From Escherichia phage UGJNEcP3, in the sequence record OV876907: DNA of 64,000 nucleotides; one strand, given 5' to 3'. A program made the translations under genes and the position numbers. How positions within the stretch are numbered: position 1 is the stretch's first letter; every line of letters starts with the position of its first letter. This document shows positions 3,637-12,995 of this stretch, piece after piece. A model generated the notes under the pieces. It saw nothing but the letters and a program-made list of their open reading frames with translations, was not told where the DNA came from and searched no databases.

Positions 3637-4589
3637 TGTATACTTTACAAGAATTTCAGAACCAGGCAATTAATATTGACCTACAGAGGAATAACCTGTT
3701 TAGTGTAGTATTTGCTACAGTTCCTTCTTCTAAATCCCAGGCGCTCCTCGACCAGTTCGGTGGAGCTTTATTTAACAATATCCCATTGAATACCGATTTG
3801 TTTGGTATTACACAAGGAGAGTTGACCCAAGGTGTTACGACATTAGTGACAGCGGGCACTCAGAAGTTGATTCGTAAGTCAGGCATAAGTAAATATCTGA
3901 TTGGAGCTATGTCATCCAGGGTTGTGCAGAGCTTACTAGGAGAGTTTGAAGTAGGTACATATCTGATGGATTTTTTCAATATGGCCTATCCTACGGCAGG
4001 TCTTTTAGTCCACGCCGTTAAAATCCCGGATAATACTTTGAACTACGAAATGGATTTGAACCATAACTCACCTAACATCAAAATTACTGGAAGGGAATAT
4101 TCCCCATTGGTATTAAGCTTCCGTATGGATTCTGAAGCTGCTAACTACCGTGCTTTTAATGATTGGGTCAATAGTGTCCAAGACCCTATTACACAATTAA
4201 GAGCATTGCCTGAAGATGTTGAAGCTGACATCCAAGTCAACCTTCATTCTCGTAATGGATTGCCACATACAGTAGTAATGCTTAATGGATGTGTTCCTGT
4301 AGGTGTTTCATCGCCGGAATTATCTTATGATGGCGATAACCAGATTGCTTCGTTTGATGTTACATTTGCTTATAGAAGTGTACAGACGGGTGCAGTTGGT
4401 AAACAAGCTGCTTATGAATGGCTGGAAGATAAAGTCCTTAAAGGCGTAGCAGGCATAAGTGAGAGTAACTCATTAAGTTCTTCTGTAGCTAAATTAAGTA
4501 GACTTTCAGGAGCTTCTAGTGGATTGACCGGATTGGTTAATACGTTTGGTGGGCGTGCTATTAATAATGGAATATCGAGGTTGCTATAA
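3636..4589 (+). CDS. 54: baseplate tail tube initiator gp54
   Basis: 317 aa, start overlaps the gp48 stop, last gene of the late baseplate operon as in T4. Confidence 0.7.
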   Translation: MYTLQEFQNQAINIDLQRNNLFSVVFATVPSSKSQALLDQFGGALFNNIPLNTDLFGITQGELTQGVTTLVTAGTQKLIRKSGISKYLIGAMSSRVVQSLLGEFEVGTYLMDFFNMAYPTAGLLVHAVKIPDNTLNYEMDLNHNSPNIKITGREYSPLVLSFRMDSEAANYRAFNDWVNSVQDPITQLRALPEDVEADIQVNLHSRNGLPHTVVMLNGCVPVGVSSPELSYDGDNQIASFDVTFAYRSVQTGAVGKQAAYEWLEDKVLKGVAGISESNSLSSSVAKLSRLSGASSGLTGLVNTFGGRAINNGISRLL

Positions 4590-4597
4590 CAAAAAAA

Positions 4598-4615
4598 GGA
4601 GAGCGTACGCTCTCC
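4598..4615. terminator. bidirectional intrinsic terminator hairpin between convergent genes
   Basis: Perfect palindrome GGAGAGCGTACGCTCTCC flanked by an A7 run upstream and TTT downstream, between the gp54 stop and the stop of minus-strand ORF 4625-4915. Confidence 0.6.
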
Positions 4616-4624
4616 TTTAGGGGT

Positions 4625-4915
4625 TTATTTACGGAACGAAATGAAACCTGCTGTGGTCATTAGTGGTTGCTTTTTAACAAACACCGTGACCGAAATAGGA
4701 GCTTCAGATTCGAGTTGTCCTGTCACTACACCGTTAAAAATGTTTTCGGTTTGTTCTGGATAAGAAAAATTCTCAACAGGTCGGATATCAAACTGTTTGT
4801 CTTCACCAAAAACTCGACGTAATTCATTACCTACGGCACTGTCAAACTCTTCGGAAGCAGGGATAACGTTTTCAACTACCAGTTCTTGACCATTAAAACG
4901 GAATGCAGATTTCAT
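4625..4915 (-). CDS. hypothetical early protein downstream of the alt cluster
   Basis: 96 aa ORF with its own GTTTAC-N18-TACTAT promoter module and GAGGAGA RBS. Confidence 0.5.
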   Translation of the reverse strand: MKSAFRFNGQELVVENVIPASEEFDSAVGNELRRVFGEDKQFDIRPVENFSYPEQTENIFNGVVTGQLESEAPISVTVFVKKQPLMTTAGFISFRK

Positions 4916-4933
4916 AATGTTCTCCTCATGTTT

Positions 4934-4963
4934 GTGTAAGGTAATAGTACCACATCCTTGTGG
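4934..4963 (-). promoter_or_regulatory. T4-type early promoter (GTTTAC -35, TACTAT -10)
   Basis: Minus strand reads GTTTAC, 18 nt spacer, TACTAT, then a leader with GAGGAGA RBS before the ATG at 4915. Confidence 0.45.
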
Positions 4964-4972
4964 TGTTGTAAA

Positions 4973-7096
4973 CTACATTTTGAATTTATTTGATAAAGAA
5001 GAGATATCCAAAGACGCGGCAAGGATTTCCATAGCTTCATTGCTTTCAGAAATGGATTCACTAATCAAGAACTGACTGAATCCATCCATCAGGCGAACTT
5101 CGCCAGTTTCCATCAAATGGTCACCATCGTAAACAGATTCGCTGAGCTCTGAAGGAGGTGTTACGGTAGCTTCCATAAGGTATTTGTGAGATACTCTATC
5201 ATTCATGGCAAAAGACGCTACTTTATCAACCTTCAACAATAATCCACGCGGAAGGATAATTTCTGCTTCTTCAGCATATTCTGTAAGGTCGCCAGGAGCG
5301 ATAACTTTAACTGCTTCAGCACCTCGAATAACCATACCAATTTCAGCAATTCTATCCGCAGGGCCTTCAGGTGCAATTGGATTACCAAACTCGTCTTCTT
5401 CCCATTCCACCTCTTCGTCATCGACTTCACCCACATCAGATGAACTACCACTAGCCAATTTAAACAACTCATCGGCTGAGGATAAAGAACCTTCATCACC
5501 AACAAAAACTGCTTGGTTGTCGAGGGCCATATAATTTTTACCAAATTCGCCAAAGATGTTAGGCTTTAATGAGGCCGACACAAAGTTCTTAAAGTAAAAT
5601 GTTTTGTTATCGATATTATGACGCAGAATTTTGTATGGTAAATCCTGACCACGATACAAAATAGTACCCTTAGGAAGTTTAATACCCTTAGTAAATGCTG
5701 AGTCTAAATCCTTAATCAATTTAATAGCCGTTGTATTGTTTTCGGATTCAGGTTTACCTAAAAGGAATAAGTTCATAGGAGCATATTCAGCTGCGCAATA
5801 TTCAATAATAGCATTGCTTTCGTCTTTGGTTAAGTCCTTAGGTTTAATGAGCTCACCTGAATAAGCATATGCATCACTAATAGAATCGTTAATTAGTTTA
5901 TAAACGGCTTCCATAGCGAAAGCAATTCGAGAGGCCTTTTCTGAAGGGGAGCCTTTAAAACGAGCGCTCAAGTTATTAACAATTTTCTTAATAATATCCA
6001 GACTATTGGTGGTATTGATTTGCGAAAGGCCACTTAAAAGTCTATCGACTTCTGTATTAAAAAATGCCATATTATTAGAGTAAATTTCAAACCCTTGTTT
6101 ATCTCTATTAGCATAATTTAGTTTAAATTTACTATCAGTCATTAAAGCGTGTGTGAGAGCAATAGTGTATCTAAAGTTGGCAAGGTCCTCGCTCTTAGAT
6201 TTAAACTGAGAAGCCTGGCGCATTTTGGTAATAGCACCTTTTTTAAAGTTCTGACTAATCTGTTCAATACCTTCATTCTCAGGGCCTTCAGCCGTGTGAA
6301 CCGGTACAGAAGCTTCAAACTCGTTATAAACCTGCAATTCTTTAGGGGACAAAGTTTCAGGCTCAGCAGTAGAATACTGCGCGGCCGCTGCCATACGACG
6401 CGAAATCTTAGTACGAGTAATGACAGCCTTATCAGTACGTTTCTCTTCAACTTGTGCAATAGATGCCGCTACGGCTTCTACTTTACTTACGGCCTGGCCG
6501 GTTTTCTTAGAAACATACACTTCGCCAACTTTAGACTCGACTTTAGTATAAAGATTGGCATCAATTTCAGGCATACCCTTGATATCTTCAATATTAGCAC
6601 CACGACGTACTAAAAGAACGTAGGTATGTTTTCCGCTGAATTGGAACATGTGGTCAACAACTTTAAACTTACCACCGGTACGGGCCATAGCCAAACGAGC
6701 TAATACGCGCTGAACGGTAGGGCCTTTACCTTTCATTTTCTTAGTAGGGAAACGGAATAAAACCGCGTCCATTTTAAGTTTGTTTATTTGTTCATATATG
6801 GTATCGAAAATGGTGTTCAGTGTACCGAGTGGATCGGTACCCAAACCACCCTTGAGTTCTGCCGGAGCGCCTTTAGCAGATAAACTCATTAAGATAACAT
6901 GGACGTACTTATCGCCATTTTTAACCATCTTAATAGCGTCGCCTTCAGACGCATAAGATACCATACGCGCTACTAAATTGTCATTACCAGGAGCATGTAC
7001 CGCAAAAATCTGCGGTACGCCTGAGCCAGGTTTAAGATTTGTTACCGGATAGTTTTTAGCGGAATCGCTATCAAAAACTTCGTTTAAATTTTCCAT
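4973..7096 (-). CDS. alt: Alt-like ADP-ribosyltransferase paralog 1 (variant catalytic motif, divergent C-terminus)
   Basis: 707 aa. N-terminal ~230 aa nearly identical to the two neighbours. ART region reads FYFKNFVSAS ... EAEIILPRG: Lys where the R-S-EXE class has Arg, and SAS instead of STS. Confidence 0.75.
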   Translation of the reverse strand: MENLNEVFDSDSAKNYPVTNLKPGSGVPQIFAVHAPGNDNLVARMVSYASEGDAIKMVKNGDKYVHVILMSLSAKGAPAELKGGLGTDPLGTLNTIFDTIYEQINKLKMDAVLFRFPTKKMKGKGPTVQRVLARLAMARTGGKFKVVDHMFQFSGKHTYVLLVRRGANIEDIKGMPEIDANLYTKVESKVGEVYVSKKTGQAVSKVEAVAASIAQVEEKRTDKAVITRTKISRRMAAAAQYSTAEPETLSPKELQVYNEFEASVPVHTAEGPENEGIEQISQNFKKGAITKMRQASQFKSKSEDLANFRYTIALTHALMTDSKFKLNYANRDKQGFEIYSNNMAFFNTEVDRLLSGLSQINTTNSLDIIKKIVNNLSARFKGSPSEKASRIAFAMEAVYKLINDSISDAYAYSGELIKPKDLTKDESNAIIEYCAAEYAPMNLFLLGKPESENNTTAIKLIKDLDSAFTKGIKLPKGTILYRGQDLPYKILRHNIDNKTFYFKNFVSASLKPNIFGEFGKNYMALDNQAVFVGDEGSLSSADELFKLASGSSSDVGEVDDEEVEWEEDEFGNPIAPEGPADRIAEIGMVIRGAEAVKVIAPGDLTEYAEEAEIILPRGLLLKVDKVASFAMNDRVSHKYLMEATVTPPSELSESVYDGDHLMETGEVRLMDGFSQFLISESISESNEAMEILAASLDISSLSNKFKM

Positions 7097-7099
7097 TAT

Positions 7100-9148
7100 T
7101 TACCCTTGGGTGAATTTTTCTGGGGTTTCGTCAAAATTAATACATGAAGCTAAAATAGGCATTATATCCACCTTGGTCGATTTGACGAATGAATCAAAAG
7201 ACACACGGTTGTCGGTCTCTGTTTCTACGCCTTGGTAAACAACCAATTCGCCGGTTTCCATCAATGCATCACCATCATAGATAACCGCATTTTCTGCTAG
7301 TTGGTCTGTGGTCTGGATATCAGCTTCCAATAATTTGGTGTTGTAGTTTCCTTTATATGAGGCATCTGTAATTTTAGTAATCTTAACAGTAGTTCCACGT
7401 GGAAGAATAACCTCTTGTTCTGTTGGAGAACCTGACAATTCACCGGGCACAATTACGTTAATAGAGTCTGCACCGGAAATTTTCCAACCGATGTTCATCA
7501 TTGTATTTTCGGAACTCGTCAGCATACTTGGAAGAACAATTTCATTATTGCCTTGGAAAGATGTCCCAGCGCGATAGTCCTGATGAACTGCGGCCATTGC
7601 GACGTTTGATACCCAGCCGCCAAAGATAATCGGCTTAAGGGACGTTGATACATAGTTCCTGAAATAAAACAATTTTGAGTGTTTGATTTTATCAAAAGTG
7701 TTAACATTTAAATATTGACCACGCCAAAGTGTAATATCAGGTGGCAATTTATGGCCAATTTCAAATGCCGCATCCATATCATTAATTACTTCAATTACAC
7801 GATAACTATCAATAAATTCTGCATCCTCTTCATAATAATTACCCAACAAATAATTATTAACATCGGTATAATATTGGCCACAATAAGAAGAAATAGCCTC
7901 ACGCTGCCCATACTCAAATCGATTATCGCTATAACTGGCTGTAAAATGCATAACACTTTCTGACGCTTCATTAGCAAAGTCGGTAACAGCAGCACTTATA
8001 CGTTGAGCATACTCTTGTTCCCAAAGCTCTGCTGCATATTCTGCCGCATCCATATTAGGAGGAGCCTCATTCATTTTTCTTTCGATAAATGCAGCTTTGC
8101 GAAGGTTAAGAACCTCTGCACATGATTCGGCAAAAATCTGCATCTGCTTCATACTGCCGACAGGAGCACGTTTAAGTTCACGATGCATACGGTTAAAAAT
8201 TGGGTCAGAGTCTTCGACTCGAATTTCTTCTTTCCAAACACCGTTTGCTCGCATAGCCATATCTGCCGCGCGCATACGCTCCATAGTATTCGTTTCAGAA
8301 GGCTGAATAAAAATTTCCAGTTCTTCATAATCATCGATAAGTTCTGCTGTTGCTGGGGCACTAAATTTTGATGCCTCTGCATCAATCTCATTCCAACCTT
8401 CCGGAACTTCATCTCGAGGAGAATACTGGGCTGCGGCTACAGCACGCCTAGAAATCTTGGTAGTAGTAATAACGGCCTTATCCGTACGTTTTTCTTCGAC
8501 TGCCGCTATACTAGCAGATAGTGCTTCTATTTTGGTTACCGATTGGCCTGTTTTCTTGGATACATAAACCTCACCAACTTTAGACTCAACCTTAGTGTAA
8601 AGGTCTGCATCAATTTCAGGCATACCTTTTATGTCCTCAATATTAGCTTGTTTACGGACCAGTAAAACGTATGTATGTTTGCCTGTAAATTGATACATAT
8701 CATCGACAACTTTAAACTTGCCGCCAGTACGAGCCATCGCCAAACGTGCCAATACACGTTGAACAGTAGGACCCTTACCTTTCATTTTCTTGGTAGGGAA
8801 CCGGAAAAGAACTGCATCCATTTTAAGTTTGTTTACTTGTTCGTATACAGTATCAAAAATGGTATTCAGCGTACCAAGTGGGTCAGAACCTAACCCACCT
8901 TTCAACTCGGCTGGGCTACCCTTAGCAGACAAACTCATCAAAATAACATGAACATATTTGTCACCCGGCTTAACCATTTTAATAGCGTCTCCTTGAGACG
9001 CATAAGATACCATACGAGCAACCAGATTATCATTACCTGGTGCTTGGATAGAGAAAATCTGTGGAATACCGGGACCCGGTTTAAGATTTGTTACTGGATA
9101 GTTTTTAGCGGAATCACTATCAAAAACCTCATTTAAATTTTCCATCAT
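7100..9148 (-). CDS. alt: Alt-like ADP-ribosyltransferase paralog 2
   Basis: 682 aa. R-S-EXE signature FYFRNYVSTS ... EQEVILPRG; C-terminal tail ends PEKFTQG like T4 Alt; start 3 nt after the paralog 3 stop. Confidence 0.8.
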   Translation of the reverse strand: MMENLNEVFDSDSAKNYPVTNLKPGPGIPQIFSIQAPGNDNLVARMVSYASQGDAIKMVKPGDKYVHVILMSLSAKGSPAELKGGLGSDPLGTLNTIFDTVYEQVNKLKMDAVLFRFPTKKMKGKGPTVQRVLARLAMARTGGKFKVVDDMYQFTGKHTYVLLVRKQANIEDIKGMPEIDADLYTKVESKVGEVYVSKKTGQSVTKIEALSASIAAVEEKRTDKAVITTTKISRRAVAAAQYSPRDEVPEGWNEIDAEASKFSAPATAELIDDYEELEIFIQPSETNTMERMRAADMAMRANGVWKEEIRVEDSDPIFNRMHRELKRAPVGSMKQMQIFAESCAEVLNLRKAAFIERKMNEAPPNMDAAEYAAELWEQEYAQRISAAVTDFANEASESVMHFTASYSDNRFEYGQREAISSYCGQYYTDVNNYLLGNYYEEDAEFIDSYRVIEVINDMDAAFEIGHKLPPDITLWRGQYLNVNTFDKIKHSKLFYFRNYVSTSLKPIIFGGWVSNVAMAAVHQDYRAGTSFQGNNEIVLPSMLTSSENTMMNIGWKISGADSINVIVPGELSGSPTEQEVILPRGTTVKITKITDASYKGNYNTKLLEADIQTTDQLAENAVIYDGDALMETGELVVYQGVETETDNRVSFDSFVKSTKVDIMPILASCINFDETPEKFTQG

Positions 9149-11236
9149 TTACCCTTGGATGAATTTTTCTGGGATGCCATAGAGGTCTATGCATGAAGCC
9201 AAAAGAGACAGTACATCAACCCGTGTAGATTTAACAAATGAATCAAAAGATACAGGGCTTTCGGAAGTATCGAAATCATCTTGATATACGACCAACTCAC
9301 CGGTTTCCATTAGTACGTCACCATCATATACCACAGATTCTTGAAGCTCATCTGATGTCATAACTTCAGCTTGAATAAATTTATTGTTAGACACCGTCCC
9401 GGAACCAGTATTGGCTGATGCATCCACGATTTTATCTATTTTTACAAGTAGCCCGCGTGGTAAAATTATTTCCTTTTCGTTGGCATGCATGCTTAATTGG
9501 CCAGGATAAATCACGTTAACCTTATGAGCGCCACTAATAGCCCAGCCAACATCAACACGGATTTGATCCGGCGCATACATATGTGTACGCACTTGACTAT
9601 CAGAGATGGTAACGCCTTCGTCATTATTATCAATGTTTAATTCTTTTCGAACATCATCGGAAGCAAGACCAATAGCCGCATTCTCTTTAAAGCCACCAAA
9701 AATGATTGGAGCTAATGAGGTTGAAACATAGTTTCTAAAATAGAATACCTTATTTTTAACTAATGCTTCGTAGATAGGCGCGCGCAAAGATTGTGCTCTA
9801 TAAACCATTATTCCTTCAGGTAAACGGTCTCCATTTTTAAAGGCAGAATCCATTCCATCAATAGCACGTTTAACTTCGCTTTCGTCCAAAACTTCATAAA
9901 AGCCTGGTTTATAACGACCAAGAAGGACATTGTTAATATCAATATAAGCTGAAGAGGCGTATTCTCTGATAGCTCGTTTTTCTGCAAGTGTATATTGTTT
10001 AGGGTCTCGAGATGTTGTTATATTAAGAATTTCTCTAGTTGATTCTATAGCGTATGTATACATTATCTTAGACAAGAATGAAGACTTACGTTGTTTCCAT
10101 ACTATTTCACTGTTTTCATTCAATATCTCTTTTTCCAAATGGAAATTGTCTTTTCTATAATCTTCAAACCAATCACTTTTAATAGATTCTGCGATTTCAT
10201 TAGCAACTTCAACAAAGGCAGCTAAAGCTTTAACTGACGTGGTTTTTTCATTTTTAATTTTTTTGACAAATGTTTCTAAAGAAGAGTTAATTTTATCACC
10301 GTAAGAAACTTCATCCGCAAATTTAAATGAATCATCCATAGTATTATAAATTTTAAAATCAATAGCCGTAGCCAACTTATCCTTAGCTGTTTCAGATGAT
10401 AACGATAGTTCAACTTCGGCCGCTTGTGGAATTAATTCTGCCGTAGCAGGCGCACTGAACTCACTAGCAGTTTGCTCGTATTTCTGAAACAATTCACCTT
10501 CATTACGATCTGATTCTAATGACTGGCTTGCTGCAATAGCACGTCGCGAAATCTTAGTCTTGGTTATAACCATTTTATCGGTGCGACGTTCTTCAACCTT
10601 AGCAATACTGCCGGCAATAGCAGTTTCTTTAGTAACCTGCAGGCCTTCTTTTTTAGAAATATAAACTTCACCAACATCAGAATCTACCTTAGTGTATAAT
10701 TCGGAATTAATTCCTGGCATACCCTTAATATCTTCAATGTTAGCTTGTTTACGAACTACTAGGATGTAAGTATGTTTACCGGTAAATTGGTACATAGCCG
10801 GAACTACTTTAAAACGTCCACCTGTTTTCTGTGCTACCAAACGTTGGATAATCCGTTGAACAATAGGCCCTTGACCTTTCATTTTCTTAGTAGGGAAACG
10901 GAACATCACTGCATCCATACGAAGCTTTTTAACTTGGTCATAAACCACATCAAAAATAGTATTAATCGCATCTACGGGAGTAGGGCCAAGGCCACCCTTA
11001 AGTTCGGCTGGAGTACCTTTAGCTGAAAGGCTCATAAGGATAACGTGGGCATATTTATCGCCTAATTTAACTTGTTTAATAGCATCACCTTCAGAAGCGT
11101 AGGATACCATACGCGCTACTAATTGGGATTCTGCATCGCCAATCTTCCAAATCTGAGGTACTTTAAGTTTTGGGTTCAAGTTTACTGTAGGCAGAGTGCC
11201 TTCGGACTCAAACACTTCATTTAATTGTTCGGTCAT
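9149..11236 (-). CDS. alt: Alt ADP-ribosyltransferase (copy most similar to T4 Alt)
   Basis: 695 aa. FYFRNYVSTS ... EKEIILPRG ... PEKFIQG; central region recalls T4 Alt more closely than the other two copies. Confidence 0.8.
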   Translation of the reverse strand: MTEQLNEVFESEGTLPTVNLNPKLKVPQIWKIGDAESQLVARMVSYASEGDAIKQVKLGDKYAHVILMSLSAKGTPAELKGGLGPTPVDAINTIFDVVYDQVKKLRMDAVMFRFPTKKMKGQGPIVQRIIQRLVAQKTGGRFKVVPAMYQFTGKHTYILVVRKQANIEDIKGMPGINSELYTKVDSDVGEVYISKKEGLQVTKETAIAGSIAKVEERRTDKMVITKTKISRRAIAASQSLESDRNEGELFQKYEQTASEFSAPATAELIPQAAEVELSLSSETAKDKLATAIDFKIYNTMDDSFKFADEVSYGDKINSSLETFVKKIKNEKTTSVKALAAFVEVANEIAESIKSDWFEDYRKDNFHLEKEILNENSEIVWKQRKSSFLSKIMYTYAIESTREILNITTSRDPKQYTLAEKRAIREYASSAYIDINNVLLGRYKPGFYEVLDESEVKRAIDGMDSAFKNGDRLPEGIMVYRAQSLRAPIYEALVKNKVFYFRNYVSTSLAPIIFGGFKENAAIGLASDDVRKELNIDNNDEGVTISDSQVRTHMYAPDQIRVDVGWAISGAHKVNVIYPGQLSMHANEKEIILPRGLLVKIDKIVDASANTGSGTVSNNKFIQAEVMTSDELQESVVYDGDVLMETGELVVYQDDFDTSESPVSFDSFVKSTRVDVLSLLASCIDLYGIPEKFIQG

Positions 11237-11258
11237 AATAATTCCTCTTTAATAACCT

Positions 11259-11266
11259 TATTTATG
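11259..11266 (-). promoter_or_regulatory. candidate late promoter (CATAAATA) for the alt cluster
   Basis: Minus strand reads CATAAATA about 20 nt upstream of the alt ATG at 11236; one mismatch to TATAAATA. Alt is a packaged late protein in T4. Confidence 0.35.
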
Positions 11267-11270
11267 CCAG

Positions 11271-11286
11271 AAAAGGCCCGAAGGCC
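11271..11286 (-). terminator. C(UUCG)G-type hairpin with U-run
   Basis: Minus strand AAGGCC-UUCG-GGCCUU followed by UUUCU, between ORF 11291-11473 and alt. Confidence 0.5.
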
Positions 11287-11290
11287 TTTA

Positions 11291-11473
11291 TTAAAGTACT
11301 AACAACGTACGGTACACTTCAAATTTAGGACCCTTTTCATAGCGGTCGAAATTATCTTTGAAATCGGCGAACGCGATTTCATTTTCAAATTCAAGGACAA
11401 TTTGGGACACTGCGGTGGAGACATCGCCACCTTCTTTATATCCAATAACCACGGTTTCTAAATAAACTTTCAT
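11291..11473 (-). CDS. hypothetical protein (start re-set from track ORF 11291-11572)
   Basis: Internal ATG at 11473 lies 1 nt after the ligase stop (11475-11477), suggesting translational coupling; about 60 aa. Confidence 0.4.
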   Translation of the reverse strand: MKVYLETVVIGYKEGGDVSTAVSQIVLEFENEIAFADFKDNFDRYEKGPKFEVYRTLLVL

Positions 11474-11474
11474 A

Positions 11475-12995
11475 TTATAACCCAGTTTGAGACCAATCAC
11501 CGAATACATCTTCAAATGTATCAGCTTCTGTTTTATCGAAACGCCAACCTTTAATGATAAGTAAGAAAACACCTACAGTATCGGTACGCCCTTTAGAATG
11601 AACCCAACCATTACATTCACAATCAGCGATACGTCCAATCAATTTACCTTCACGTGCTTCCTTCATCAGTCGTTCACGGTCCATATCAGGACGGTCTTCT
11701 AAAGGAATCAATATTTTCTTTTTAGTCTTAAAGTCTTTAGTGTGAGTTGTGTCTTTAAAGCCTGAACCACAGTCACTTGTAATTCGACGACACCGCGATA
11801 CTAACTCAACACCACCAATCTTGTTAGGGTCTTTAGAGTGTTCATAATAACCTACTACTTCTAAAGCGATATCGATTACTTCTTTGAACTTGATAAGATT
11901 CTTAGAACGGCGGTTTTCCCAATAGGAGTCCATGTTCTTAAGGATAATGCCTTCCAGACCTTGGTCGACATATTTCTTATAAACTTCACGAGCTTCTTTA
12001 AGATTATAGACCCATTGGTTTTCAATTGCTTCAACACGAGTTTTACCATGCAATACGACATTATGCCCTACCATATGTTCTAAGGCGGCAAAACGTACGT
12101 CGTATTTCTCGCCTTTAATTTTACCTTCAGAGTACACCACTTCAAGAGGAACATAGTCCCATGCCTGAAGAACCATACCAGCGGCTTCAGTAGCTGAAAT
12201 AGTACCATTCAGGGATTTGTTAGCTAATCCGTTTGAAGTGCTACGGTCTACAGCGAATTCTTTAGCCTTGCTTAGTTCAGGCATGTCTTCTTCAAACATA
12301 CTAAACAAGTCATTAGCTTCAGGTTGCTTAACCACCGGTTCATGGTAAACTAATTCACCATCAATTAATACGCCACCGGGATGTTTCTGACGTGCATCTT
12401 CAGTCATAACCATGAGCTCTTCAGCCAATAGATTAAGCCCTTGATATTCGTTACCGCCACGTGTAAGGAATGTTACGCCGTCGTTACGAACTTCAGCAAA
12501 ACATCGAGCCCCATCAGCTTTTAATTGAGCGAACGCTGGCCATTTAATATTTTTCTTAATCAGAGCTTCGTCATAAGAACTAGCCAACATTTGAGGTTGT
12601 TCAGGGATTAAACCTTTCCAAACCTTGTTAGCAATAGAAATTGATGCGCCACATTCAAGGTCACGCATCATTACGCGACGTAATACCTCAGCGTCCGGAC
12701 CTTTAGCATCAGCAATGATTTGGGCTAGTTCTTCAATAGCCGCATTACCTGTAATCTTACGGGTGGCTAGTGTGAACTCAGCGAAATCAAGAAGGTCTTC
12801 AAGTGTAATCATACCAAAGGATTGAGACGTAAATCCAGGTTCTGGCCACTTTTTAATGCCGTAATTCAGACGACGGGTATAGGCCATACGATAAACACGT
12901 TTCAGAAGCTCATTGTCCTTTTCACGAGCAATAATAGCTTCTTTAGCTTTAGTAGAATCAATAGCAGCAATTTCGTTTAAAATATCTAAAATCAT
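11475..12995 (-). CDS. 30: ATP-dependent DNA ligase gp30
   Basis: 506 aa; N-terminus MILDILNEIAAIDSTK... and the C-terminal FEDVFGD...TGL segment match recalled T4 DNA ligase closely. Confidence 0.9.
   Translation of the reverse strand: MILDILNEIAAIDSTKAKEAIIAREKDNELLKRVYRMAYTRRLNYGIKKWPEPGFTSQSFGMITLEDLLDFAEFTLATRKITGNAAIEELAQIIADAKGPDAEVLRRVMMRDLECGASISIANKVWKGLIPEQPQMLASSYDEALIKKNIKWPAFAQLKADGARCFAEVRNDGVTFLTRGGNEYQGLNLLAEELMVMTEDARQKHPGGVLIDGELVYHEPVVKQPEANDLFSMFEEDMPELSKAKEFAVDRSTSNGLANKSLNGTISATEAAGMVLQAWDYVPLEVVYSEGKIKGEKYDVRFAALEHMVGHNVVLHGKTRVEAIENQWVYNLKEAREVYKKYVDQGLEGIILKNMDSYWENRRSKNLIKFKEVIDIALEVVGYYEHSKDPNKIGGVELVSRCRRITSDCGSGFKDTTHTKDFKTKKKILIPLEDRPDMDRERLMKEAREGKLIGRIADCECNGWVHSKGRTDTVGVFLLIIKGWRFDKTEADTFEDVFGDWSQTGL

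What the first reader, a model, noticed from the sequence alone, without database searches (positions are those of the whole stretch)
4973..11236. Three tandem, translationally coupled Alt-type ADP-ribosyltransferase paralogs
Three consecutive minus-strand genes of 707, 682 and 695 aa are separated by 3 nt and 0 nt. They share a nearly identical N-terminal ~230 aa module beginning MENLNEVFDSD / MTEQLNEVFESE, where a Leu-x-Glu near the N-terminus fits the prohead protease cleavage motif of packaged proteins. Their central regions diverge, then all carry an ART-type region. T4 is recalled as having a single alt at this position. A tandem array with shared packaging module and diversified effector parts looks like an expandable set of injected effectors. 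The DNA-level repeats (for example around 6420-6700, 8460-8700 and 10560-10800) could also drive copy-number change by recombination.
Basis: partly seen in the sequence, partly recalled or inferred. Interest (0 to 1): 0.7.

Follow-up and report, generated by a model that had tools for sequence, protein, structure and literature searches.

The report
Three tandem Alt ADP-ribosyltransferase genes
This T4-like coliphage carries three intact, already annotated copies of the injected enzyme Alt, each a conserved phage-specific end-piece "frame" around a different swappable enzyme "cassette", so the phage probably injects three different host-modifying enzymes.

Summary
Three minus-strand ORFs (4973-7096, 7100-9145/9148, 9149-11236) are full-length Alt-family ADP-ribosyltransferases. 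The window is 100% identical to Escherichia phage UGJNEcP4 (Dhakavirus), where all three are already annotated. Alt duplication in JS98, Bp7, Ac42, ZZ1 and 44RR is in the literature, and T4's alt.-1/alt.-2 are remnants of a second copy. The gene array is therefore not new.

The added value is the anatomy. Each gene is a "frame" plus a "cassette".
- The frame is the N-propeptide, a ~235-aa N-module and the C-terminal ~75 aa including the C-propeptide. It is specific to genus and array slot.
- The cassette is a helical central domain plus a C3/VIP2-like ART domain. It has closer relatives in other genera than in its own genome.

The middle copy joins a Dhakavirus frame to a Gaprivervirus-type cassette. 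Breakpoints lie at KISRRA...SQSLES and about 13 residues before the C-terminal gp21 cleavage site known from T4. Both T4 cleavage motifs and the R/S/ExE residues are kept in all copies.

The most likely function is a late operon of three packaged, processed, injected ARTs with different targets. Packaging, activity and targets are inferred, not shown. The DNA repeats are too diverged (66-78%) to drive frequent copy-number change.

The parts
11272..11289 (-). Terminator-like hairpin AAAGGCCTTCGGGCCTTT downstream of the alt.1 homolog, just upstream of the alt operon
   Evidence: Read. The identical hairpin sits at the homologous place upstream of T4 alt.
11259..11266 (-). Late-promoter-like box CATAAATA, one mismatch from the T4 late consensus TATAAATA
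   Evidence: T4 has a perfect TATAAATA at the homologous position after the same hairpin. No perfect TATAAATA occurs inside 4500-11700. Function is inferred.
11242..11250 (-). Shine-Dalgarno AAAGAGGAA of copy 3
   Evidence: it ends 5 nt before the ATG at 11236.
9149..11236 (-). Copy 3 (695 aa), promoter-proximal. It is the same type as JS98 AltA and is the closest of the three to T4 Alt. Its cassette is related to, but distinct from, the T4 and RB3 types.
   Evidence: It is 97-99% identical to JS98 alta in every segment. Against T4 Alt the ART is 54-55% and the tail 57-58% identical. Pfam PF03496 E 1.7e-28. Catalytic residues R480, S505-T-S, E587-K-E589.
10526..11215 (-). Copy 3 N-module (residues 8-237). 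It is preceded by the predicted N-propeptide at 11216-11236, with cleavage predicted after LNE-7.
   Evidence: The AF2 model has pLDDT about 80-90 here with an alpha/beta fold. The precomputed Pfam domain is PF26846 Tevenvirinae_ADPRT.
9338..10525 (-). Copy 3 segment between the KISRR motif and the predicted C-terminal cleavage site: helical central domain plus ART domain. The mapped cassette is residues about 243-620; the frame resumes about 13 residues before the cut.
   Evidence: Against QL01 slot 1, nucleotide identity drops from 89-99% to 39-74% exactly over residues about 241-620, then returns to 94-97%.
9152..9337 (-). Copy 3 predicted C-propeptide (62 aa after LQE-633)
   Evidence: It aligns with T4 Alt LTE-619, where 63 residues are removed (PMC5694885).
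9152..9156 (-). SD-like AAGGG inside the last codons of copy 3, 6 nt before the ATG at 9145
7100..9145 (-). Copy 2 (681 aa from the second ATG; 682 aa from 9148). It is the extra copy, present in only a subset of Dhakaviruses, and is a chimera of a Dhakavirus frame and a Gaprivervirus-type cassette.
   Evidence: Its N-module is 89% identical to copy 1 but 41% to UPEC01. Its central domain is 83%, ART 76% and tail 70% identical to the single Alt of Gaprivervirus UPEC01. Catalytic residues R475, S500-T-S, E576-Q-E578. JS98, Bp7, dhaeg and IME281 lack this cassette type.
7292..8428 (-). Copy 2 segment between the KISRR motif and the predicted C-terminal cut (central domain plus ART). It is flanked by the N-module (8429-9127), the N-propeptide (9128-9145) and the C-propeptide (7103-7291, after LAE-618).
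   Evidence: UPEC01-like nucleotide identity runs from about residue 239 to about residue 640, so it extends some 20 residues past the predicted cleavage site. The last ~35 aa are Dhakavirus-type.
7103..7107 (-). SD-like AAGGG inside the last codons of copy 2, 6 nt before the ATG at 7096
4973..7096 (-). Copy 1 (707 aa), promoter-distal. It is the same type as JS98 AltB. Its cassette is related to the second Alt of Tequatroviruses such as RB3, of which T4 alt.-1/alt.-2 are remnants.
   Evidence: It is 89-100% identical to JS98 altb across segments. Against RB3 alt2 the central domain is 45% and the ART 61% identical, and hhalign of the central domains gives probability 99.9%. Catalytic residues R482, S507-A-S, E610-A-E612. 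Foldseek gives probability 1.00 to C3, VIP2, iota, CDTa, Vis and Certhrax ARTs.
5138..6379 (-). Copy 1 segment between the KISRR motif and the predicted C-terminal cut. Its central domain has no detectable relationship to those of copies 2 and 3. It is flanked by the N-module (6380-7078), the N-propeptide (7079-7096) and the C-propeptide (4976-5137, after LSE-653).
   Evidence: hhalign of central domains: c1 type vs c2 or c3 types gives probability 0.5% or less.
4625..4915 (-). alt.-3 homolog (96 aa), probably the last gene of the same transcription unit
   Evidence: It has the same position and length as T4 alt.-3.
4595..4618 (-). Strong intrinsic-terminator-like hairpin followed by a T-run, after alt.-3
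   Evidence: 10-bp stem, 5 GC pairs, TTTTTG tail.

Best explanation
The locus is most likely a late operon. Its order is hairpin, CATAAATA, SD, copy 3, copy 2, copy 1, alt.-3, terminator. It encodes three functional paralogs of the T4 Alt protein, a mono-ADP-ribosyltransferase that in T4 is built into the prohead core (about 40 copies), trimmed at both ends by the prohead protease gp21, and injected with the DNA.

Each gene has a two-part design. The 'frame' is the N-propeptide, the ~235-aa N-module and the last ~75 aa, including the C-propeptide. It is specific to the phage genus and to the slot in the array. It probably provides what the virion needs: incorporation into the prohead, processing and exit. 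The 'cassette' is a ~175-aa helical central domain plus a ~200-aa arginine-type (R / S-T-S / E-x-E) ART domain. It is exchanged horizontally between genera by recombination at two conserved motifs, and it probably sets which host proteins are modified.

The phage therefore most likely injects three ARTs with different target sets at the moment of infection. These could act in host takeover, in neutralising defence systems, or both.

Shown here: the gene structure, homology, intact catalytic and cleavage motifs, purifying selection, the mosaic pattern and its breakpoints. Inferred: late expression, packaging, cleavage, injection, enzymatic activity, distinct targets, and the role of the frame.
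For: Family and fold: PF03496 and a full-length phrog_802 match for all three; C3/VIP2-like ART fold; R, S-x-S and E-x-E conserved.

Position and signals: the genes lie between the alt.1/gene 30 and alt.-3/gene 54 homologs, as in T4. The same upstream hairpin is present, with a late-promoter box at the place where T4 has TATAAATA.

Processing: both T4 Alt gp21 sites (ITE-6, LTE-619; PMC5694885, PMC9026906) align with L-x-E in all three copies.

Selection: omega is 0.01-0.15 against the closest orthologs.

Frame and cassette: the type table for 11 genomes shows the same cassette in different frames. Cassette 4 occurs in Dhakavirus N1/T1 and in RB3 N4/T6. Cassette 6 occurs in T4 N4/T6 and in Bp7 N2/T5. 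Cassette 2 occurs in UGJNEcP4 N2/T2 and in UPEC01 N6/T8. It also shows different cassettes in one frame: the T4 and RB3 N-modules are 99% identical while their central domains are 32% and their ARTs 63% identical. Nucleotide-level breakpoints fall at about residue 240 and about 13 residues before the C-terminal cleavage site.

Wider sample: in 129 Alt proteins the pairwise identities of central and ART segments correlate (rho 0.85) but N-module and central only weakly (0.43). There are 195 pairs with N-module at least 95% and central below 40% identical; in these the C-terminal end has median 95% identity.

Functional precedent: T4 Alt, but not the divergent Alt of phage Bas37, restores plating against Mokosh type I (bioRxiv 10.1101/2025.11.20.689424).
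Against: There are no expression, proteomic or enzymatic data for any of the three proteins. The promoter box has one mismatch to the consensus. In T4 the proven capsid-targeting elements are short propeptides, not the 235-aa N-module. Genus-specific conservation of the N-module could also arise from linkage or past gene conversion rather than from a virion partner. All cassettes keep the same catalytic class, so different targets are inferred only from sequence divergence. About 40 Alt copies fit into a T4 head, and it is unknown whether three paralogs add to or compete for that space.
Confidence: 0.78

Rival explanations
1. The paralogs are redundant dosage copies. All three do the same job as T4 Alt (ADP-ribosylating RNAP alpha and the same host proteins), and the array only raises the amount of enzyme.
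For: All three have the same catalytic class and motifs and the same frame architecture.
Against: The cassettes are only 17-25% (central) and 38-42% (ART) identical to one another. Each is much closer to a cassette in another genus: 76-83%, 45-61% and 54-61%. The central domain of copy 1 is not detectably homologous to the other two. Divergent Alt variants are not interchangeable against Mokosh I.
Confidence: 0.1
2. The shared N-module is not a virion or packaging adaptor. It is a second functional domain that acts in the host, for example a GNAT-like enzyme or a binding domain, and it is conserved for that reason.
Against: The fold scores are weak: Foldseek E about 0.2, and TM-score normalised to the target at most 0.41. 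hhalign against an E. coli GNAT profile gives probability 0.15%, and Pfam finds no such family at E up to 10. The module groups by phage genus and array slot: it is 42-47% identical between Dhakavirus and Tequatrovirus although both infect E. coli, and 66-91% identical within a genome. That fits a phage partner better than a host partner. It also co-varies with the C-propeptide, which is discarded in the head.
Confidence: 0.15
3. One or two copies are decaying relics, like T4 alt.-1/alt.-2.
For: T4 shows that a second copy can decay.
Against: All three ORFs are intact and keep their catalytic and cleavage motifs. Omega against orthologs is 0.01-0.15. The same intact genes occur in several isolates.
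Confidence: 0.04
4. The array is an assembly artefact, a collapsed or expanded repeat.
For: None beyond the tandem arrangement.
Against: The copies share at most 78% nucleotide identity in the best region and at most 30 nt of exact match. The array is collinear in independently sequenced phages: KIT01 at 96% and QL01 at 95%.
Confidence: 0.01

Closest known systems
Bacteriophage T4 Alt (gpAlt), the packaged and injected NAD:arginine mono-ADP-ribosyltransferase
   Same: The domain order, genomic position, upstream hairpin and late-promoter position are the same. Both gp21 cleavage motifs and the R/S/ExE catalytic residues are present. Copy 3 is the closest: N-module 46%, ART 54-55%, tail 57-58%.
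   Different: There are three intact genes instead of one plus remnants. None of the three cassettes is the T4 type; in Dhakavirus the T4 type appears in Bp7 slot 2. Central domains are 16-25% identical to T4's. No experimental data exist for any of the three.
JS98 altA/altB and other reported Alt duplications (Bp7, Ac42, ZZ1, 44RR; PMC4177764, PMC1524935)
   Same: Copy 3 corresponds to JS98 AltA (97-99%) and copy 1 to JS98 AltB (89-100%). The operon layout and 3-nt junctions are the same.
   Different: A third gene is inserted between them, carrying a Gaprivervirus-type cassette. The papers I could read note duplication but do not describe the frame/cassette mosaic.
Polymorphic toxin and effector systems, especially phage MuF-toxin fusions (PMC5576092, PMC3482391)
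   Same: Conserved, delivery-related end-pieces are combined with a variable effector part that is exchanged by recombination at conserved junctions. Delivery is as a head-packaged protein.
   Different: The variable part always keeps the same ART catalytic class. The frame includes a C-terminal piece as well as the N-terminus. There are no immunity genes, the N-module is unrelated to MuF, and the phages are lytic T-even phages.
T4 internal proteins IPI/IPII/IPIII with a capsid targeting sequence
   Same: They are packaged through the prohead core, cut by gp21 at L/I-x-E, injected, highly polymorphic between T-even phages, and have anti-defence roles (PMC3012670, PMC12373910).
   Different: The IPs are small non-enzymatic proteins with only a ~10-aa targeting peptide. 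Alt proteins are 70-kDa enzymes with a large conserved N-module and a C-propeptide.
C3-like and VIP2/iota-like bacterial ART toxins (Pfam PF03496)
   Same: They share the catalytic fold and the R / S-T-S / E-x-E motifs.
   Different: They share only the ~200-aa catalytic domain. Delivery and the remaining architecture are unrelated.

Membership tests
T4 Alt family (Alt-like RNA polymerase ADP-ribosyltransferase, phrog_802) | C-terminal-half ART domain of the R-S-E (C3/VIP2) class with Arg, Ser-Thr-Ser and Glu-x-Glu | tested here: met
   PF03496 E 1.2e-17, 2.6e-20 and 1.7e-28. Residues R482/SAS507/EAE610 in c1, R475/STS500/EQE576 in c2, R480/STS505/EKE587 in c3. Foldseek probability 1.00 to C3, VIP2 and iota toxins for c1. 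Copy 1 has S-A-S instead of S-T-S.
T4 Alt family (Alt-like RNA polymerase ADP-ribosyltransferase, phrog_802) | N-terminal ~235-aa Alt-specific domain (Pfam PF26846 Tevenvirinae_ADPRT) at the very N-terminus | tested here: met
   Full-length phrog_802 matches. 42-47% identity to the T4 Alt N-module. PF26846 is precomputed on the identical protein P0001 and named. The model is absent from the local Pfam copy.
T4 Alt family (Alt-like RNA polymerase ADP-ribosyltransferase, phrog_802) | Genomic position between gene 30/alt.1 and alt.-3/gene 54, on the same strand as gene 30 | tested here: met
T4 Alt family (Alt-like RNA polymerase ADP-ribosyltransferase, phrog_802) | gp21 cleavage sites at both ends (T4: ITE-6 and LTE-619) | tested here: inconclusive
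   L-x-E motifs align at both sites in all copies: LNE-6/7, and LSE-653, LAE-618, LQE-633. Actual cleavage cannot be tested here.
T4 Alt family (Alt-like RNA polymerase ADP-ribosyltransferase, phrog_802) | Late transcription from a TATAAATA promoter | tested here: inconclusive
   CATAAATA (7 of 8) sits at the position homologous to the T4 box, after the same hairpin. There is no perfect box in the region.
T4 Alt family (Alt-like RNA polymerase ADP-ribosyltransferase, phrog_802) | Packaging into the head (about 40 copies) and injection with the DNA | not testable with these tools
   Known for T4 only (PMC5694885, PMC9026906). I found no Dhakavirus virion proteome.
T4 Alt family (Alt-like RNA polymerase ADP-ribosyltransferase, phrog_802) | ADP-ribosylation of E. 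coli RNAP alpha (Arg265) and other host proteins | not testable with these tools
   This is a biochemical property. The annotation name 'RNA polymerase ADP-ribosyltransferase' is transferred by homology.
Polymorphic toxin/effector systems (including MuF-toxin fusions) | Conserved delivery domain joined to variable effector domains, with evidence of cassette recombination | tested here: met
   Frame/cassette table, nucleotide breakpoints and statistics on 129 proteins.
Polymorphic toxin/effector systems (including MuF-toxin fusions) | Effector domains of many unrelated catalytic folds | tested here: not met
   Every full-length family member examined keeps PF03496. Only the central domain falls into unrelated families. 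A few distant N-module proteins lack a detectable ART (P0179, P0180, P0181, P0184), but they were not characterised.
Polymorphic toxin/effector systems (including MuF-toxin fusions) | Cognate immunity gene next to each toxin cassette | tested here: not met
   The genes abut with 3-nt gaps, and there are no small ORFs between them on the coding strand.
GNAT acetyltransferase superfamily (for the N-module only) | GNAT fold with sequence-profile similarity and the acetyl-CoA motif | tested here: inconclusive

The most novel reading that the evidence does not exclude
Across T-even phages, the alt locus may be a polymorphic injected-effector system. A genus- and slot-specific virion 'frame' (N-propeptide, PF26846 N-module, C-propeptide) would carry horizontally exchanged 'central domain + ART' cassettes. 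There are at least three mutually unrelated central (target-recognition) domain families and 1-3 slots per genome. Each phage would then inject its own combination of ADP-ribosyltransferases, tuned to different host targets or defence systems, as T4 Alt is for Mokosh type I and MazF. The mosaic itself is well supported here. The functional reading, and whether it is unpublished, are not established.
Probability: 0.4. Interest if true: 0.6.

Novelty: new member of a known kind. Interest (0 to 1): 0.4.

Why it matters
Alt is the classic example of a phage enzyme delivered with the DNA to reprogram the host. A recent preprint links T4 Alt to evasion of a defence system and shows that a divergent Alt variant does not substitute for it. 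If the three proteins here are all packaged and have different targets, the Alt locus becomes a natural library of injected ARTs with a defined carrier. That would give a direct way to map which cassette counters which host function. It would also give a design rule (keep the frame, swap the cassette) for loading enzymes into T4-type heads. If instead they are redundant, the locus is just one more duplicated accessory gene.

Tried and rejected
2. Solved structures. phmmer of copy 3 against PDB sequences gave no hit.
3. NCBIfam gave no family for any copy.
4. The afdb50 fold library was unavailable.
5. Recent gene conversion as the cause of the 89% identity between the c1 and c2 N-modules. I rejected this as the sole cause, because synonymous sites are saturated (pS 0.68, omega 0.04) and the longest exact match is 21 nt. 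However, the JS98 AltB N-module looks like a patchwork of c1 and c2 states (by eye), and dS between orthologs is higher in the N-module (0.47-0.78) than in the ART (0.05-0.24). Older exchanges within N-modules are therefore likely.
6. Simple unequal crossing-over between AltA and AltB as the origin of the middle copy. I rejected this because its cassette is of the Gaprivervirus type.
7. There is no perfect late promoter in the region, and the sigma-70 and terminator scans are no better than shuffles, apart from the hairpins noted.
8. The JS98 genome paper (PMC532421) is not held, and I found no Dhakavirus virion proteome.
9. The context of P0180, an N-module protein without an ART, could not be read because the contig is only 4.7 kb.

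Full report
OBSERVATION. One search lists three consecutive minus-strand ORFs: 4973-7096 (707 aa, here copy 1), 7100-9148 (682 aa, copy 2) and 9149-11236 (695 aa, copy 3). As called, the gaps are 3 nt and 0 nt. The two junctions are homologous (CAAGGGTAA ATG ATGGAAAAT and CAAGGGTAA ATA ATGGAAAAT). Copy 2 therefore most likely starts at its second ATG (9145), as in the public annotation, and both gaps are 3 nt. An AAGGG lies 6 nt before each downstream ATG. All three proteins hit Pfam PF03496 (ADP-ribosyltransferase exoenzyme) well above the curated cut-off and match phrog_802 'Alt-like RNA polymerase ADP-ribosyltransferase' end to end.

WHERE IT COMES FROM AND WHAT IS ALREADY KNOWN. The region is 100% identical to Escherichia phage UGJNEcP4 (OV877765.1, Tevenvirinae, Dhakavirus), where all three genes are annotated as Alt-like. 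The same three-gene array is annotated in KIT01 and QL01, and several further records list three Alt genes. JS98, the type phage, has two genes, altA and altB. Published genome papers already note Alt duplication in JS98, Bp7, Ac42 and ZZ1 (PMC4177764) and in 44RR. They also note that T4 alt.-1 and alt.-2 are paralogous fragments of alt (PMC1524935). I confirmed that last point. T4 alt is followed after 3 nt by alt.-1/alt.-2. These correspond to phrog_23015 and phrog_15247, which hit residues about 1-58 and 65-117 of the proteins here. RB3 has two intact Alt genes, and T6 and other Tequatroviruses show a second matching place.

ANATOMY. Alignment divides each protein into four segments.
- The N-module (residues 1 to about 242) is 89% identical between copies 1 and 2 and 66-68% to copy 3.
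- The central region (about 175 aa) is 17-25% identical.
- The ART region (about 200 aa) is 38-42% identical.
- The tail (about 90 aa) is 32-56% identical.
The catalytic Arg, Ser-x-Ser and Glu-x-Glu are present in all copies; copy 1 has S-A-S. An AF2 model of copy 3 residues 1-416 (pLDDT 82) shows an alpha/beta N-module and an all-helical central domain. A full-length model of copy 1 (pLDDT 66, poor in the central region) matches C3, VIP2, iota, CDTa, Vis and Certhrax ARTs with Foldseek probability 1.00. T4 Alt is cut by the prohead protease gp21 after ITE-6 and after LTE-619, which removes 63 C-terminal residues (PMC5694885, PMC9026906). Both sites align with L-x-E in all three copies: LNE-6/7, then LSE-653, LAE-618 and LQE-633. 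This predicts mature proteins of 68-71 kDa.

OPERON. Upstream of copy 3 lies the hairpin AAAGGCCTTCGGGCCTTT, then CATAAATA and a strong SD. T4 has the identical hairpin followed by the late-promoter consensus TATAAATA at the same place. No other late box or convincing terminator lies between the genes. A strong terminator-like hairpin follows the alt.-3 homolog at 4595-4618. A single late transcript covering copy 3, copy 2, copy 1 and alt.-3 is the simplest reading, but it is inferred.

RELATIONSHIPS OF THE THREE COPIES. Copy 3 is JS98 AltA (97-99% in every segment) and is the closest of the three to T4 Alt (ART 54-55%). Copy 1 is JS98 AltB. Its cassette is related to the second Alt of Tequatroviruses: against RB3 alt2 the central domain is 45% and the ART 61% identical. 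Copy 2 is the extra gene. Its central, ART and tail segments are 83%, 76% and 70% identical to the single Alt of Gaprivervirus UPEC01. Its N-module, however, is 41% identical to UPEC01's and 89% to copy 1's. By tblastn, the copy-2 cassette is found at 95% or more in 11 phage records and the copy-1 cassette at 90% or more in 43. These counts include RefSeq/GenBank duplicates. Roughly a quarter of the phages with the copy-1 type therefore also carry the copy-2 type. Against their closest orthologs all segments are under purifying selection, with omega 0.01-0.15.

FRAME AND CASSETTE. The arrays are:
- UGJNEcP4 and KIT01: [N1-C1A1-T1][N2-C2A2-T2][N2-C3A3-T3]
- QL01: [N1-C4A4-T1][N2-C2A2-T2][N2-C3A3-T3]
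- Salmonella phage ABTNLS3: [N3-C5A5-T4][N1-C4A4-T1][N2-C3A3-T3]
- JS98: [N1-C1A1-T1][N2-C3A3-T3]
- Bp7: [N1-C4A4-T1][N2-C6A6-T5]
- dhaeg and IME281: [N1-C4A4-T1][N2-C3A3-T3]
- T4: [N4-C6A6-T6]
- RB3: [N4-C4A4-T6][N5-C7A7-T7]
- UPEC01: [N6-C2A2-T8]
Central and ART types always travel together. N-module and tail types follow the genus and the slot. The T4 and RB3 first genes have 99% identical N-modules and 90% identical tails, but only 32% (central) and 63% (ART) identity in between. The RB3 cassette is 94% identical in its ART to that of Dhakavirus Bp7.

At nucleotide level the switches are sharp. UGJNEcP4 vs QL01 slot 1 is 89-99% identical up to the KISRRAIAASQSLES motif (about residue 240). 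It is 39-74% identical to about residue 620, and 94-97% from IQAEVMT..ELQE onward. T4 vs RB3 behaves the same way, with the 3' switch about 13 residues before LTE-619. The frame is therefore the N-propeptide, the N-module, the last dozen mature residues and the C-propeptide.

The pattern holds in 129 Alt proteins from a large protein database. Pairwise identities of the central and ART segments correlate (Spearman 0.85), but those of the N-module and central segments only weakly (0.43). Among 1,065 pairs with N-modules at least 95% identical, 18% have central regions below 40% identity. In those 195 pairs the C-terminal end is still 95% identical at the median, while the ART is 62%.

CENTRAL DOMAINS. 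Profile comparison groups the central domains of copy 3, copy 2, T4 Alt and RB3 Alt as distant homologs. Probabilities are 80-99.7% for five of the six pairs. The copy-2 type vs the RB3 type gives only 8%, so that link is indirect. The central domain of copy 1 matches only RB3 alt2 (99.9%) and none of the others (0.5% or less). The ABTNLS3 slot-1 domain matches nothing.

THE REPEAT AND RECOMBINATION CLAIM. They are 78% or 66% identical, the longest exact matches are 21, 30 and 15 nt, and synonymous sites between copies 1 and 2 are saturated (pS 0.68). They are poor substrates for frequent unequal crossing-over, and the third copy was not made by duplicating a neighbour. Recombination has clearly shaped the locus, but at the conserved frame/cassette junctions and over evolutionary time. 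Two observations suggest older patchy exchange between N-modules. First, synonymous divergence between orthologs is higher in the N-module (dS 0.47-0.78) than in the ART (0.05-0.24). Second, the JS98 AltB N-module mixes copy-1 and copy-2 states.

MECHANISM. The explanation I commit to (about 0.78) has four steps. The three genes are expressed late. Their products enter the prohead core. gp21 removes 6-7 N-terminal and 54-63 C-terminal residues. The mature enzymes are then injected with the DNA and ADP-ribosylate arginines on different sets of host proteins, with specificity set by the cassette. The frame, which co-varies with the phage rather than with the host, most likely serves virion incorporation, processing and exit.

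Gene structure, motifs, selection and mosaicism are shown here. Everything biochemical is inferred from T4. A preprint reports that T4 Alt, but not the divergent Alt of Bas37, rescues plating against Mokosh type I (10.1101/2025.11.20.689424). This shows that Alt variants can differ functionally. The rivals are pure dosage redundancy, decaying copies, an assembly artefact, and an N-module that acts in the host rather than in the virion. They are listed with their evidence; only the last remains a serious partial alternative.

COMPARISON AND NOVELTY. These are members of the T4 Alt family by every sequence-level criterion I could test. Cleavage, packaging and substrates cannot be tested here. 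The locus works like a polymorphic effector system, with a conserved delivery part and a recombining effector part, as in MuF-toxin fusions (PMC5576092). It fails two defining features of that class: there are no immunity genes, and only one catalytic class is used. I therefore do not file it there. The genes and their duplication are known. I did not find the frame/cassette architecture, its breakpoints at the processing-related motifs, or the unrelated central-domain families described in the papers available to me, but my literature access is incomplete. My overall rating is a new, uncharacterised member of a known kind, of moderate interest.

Noticed in passing
window 4625-4915 (-): This is a 96-aa homolog of T4 alt.-3, immediately downstream of the Alt array. 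In T4, C-terminal extension mutations of alt.-3 let the phage escape the CmdTAC defence system (PMC11618068).
   Followed up: partly
L003 7056-7441 (T4 alt.-1 / alt.-2): T4 keeps the first ~130 codons of a second Alt gene, split by a frameshift into alt.-1 and alt.-2, 3 nt after alt. Its N-terminus (MELITELFDGASAP...) matches the RB3 second Alt rather than T4 Alt.
   Followed up: partly
L010 4891-6786 (Salmonella phage vB_SalD_ABTNLS3): This is a different three-gene array. A 631-aa Alt with its own N-module type and a central domain unrelated to all the others sits upstream of the usual two genes.
   Followed up: partly
L012 552-3980 (metagenome contig; protein P0180), also P0179, P0181, P0184: These proteins of 347-1142 aa carry the Alt N-module (PF26846) at their N-terminus but have no detectable ART domain. 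The module may also carry other cargo. The contig is too short to give context.
   Followed up: partly
window 10526-11215 (-) and the equivalent parts of copies 1 and 2: The predicted N-module fold repeatedly matches GNAT acetyltransferases at low scores. Two Gly-rich loops (LKGGLGP, KKMKGQGP) precede the two long helices. Sequence-profile comparison does not support homology.
   Followed up: yes
window about 5363-5440 (-), copy 1 residues about 553-578: A strongly acidic insertion of about 26 aa (DVGEVDDEEVEWEEDEFGNPIAPEG) lies between the S-x-S and E-x-E motifs of the copy 1 ART domain. It is absent from copies 2 and 3 and from T4 Alt, is conserved in JS98 AltB, and has low confidence in the AF2 model.
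   Followed up: no
window 6380-7078, 8429-9127, 10526-11215 (-) vs L002: Between orthologs in UGJNEcP4 and JS98, synonymous divergence is several-fold higher in the N-module (dS 0.47-0.78) than in the ART region (0.05-0.24). The JS98 AltB N-module mixes residues typical of copy 1 and copy 2. This suggests patchy exchange among N-modules.
   Followed up: partly
window 9143-9148 (-): Copy 2 has two adjacent in-frame ATGs. The ORF caller uses the first (682 aa, 0-nt gap). The public annotation and the homologous copy 1 junction favour the second (681 aa, 3-nt gap). JS98 altb, Bp7 alt' and the T4 alt record used here show the same ambiguity.
   Followed up: yes
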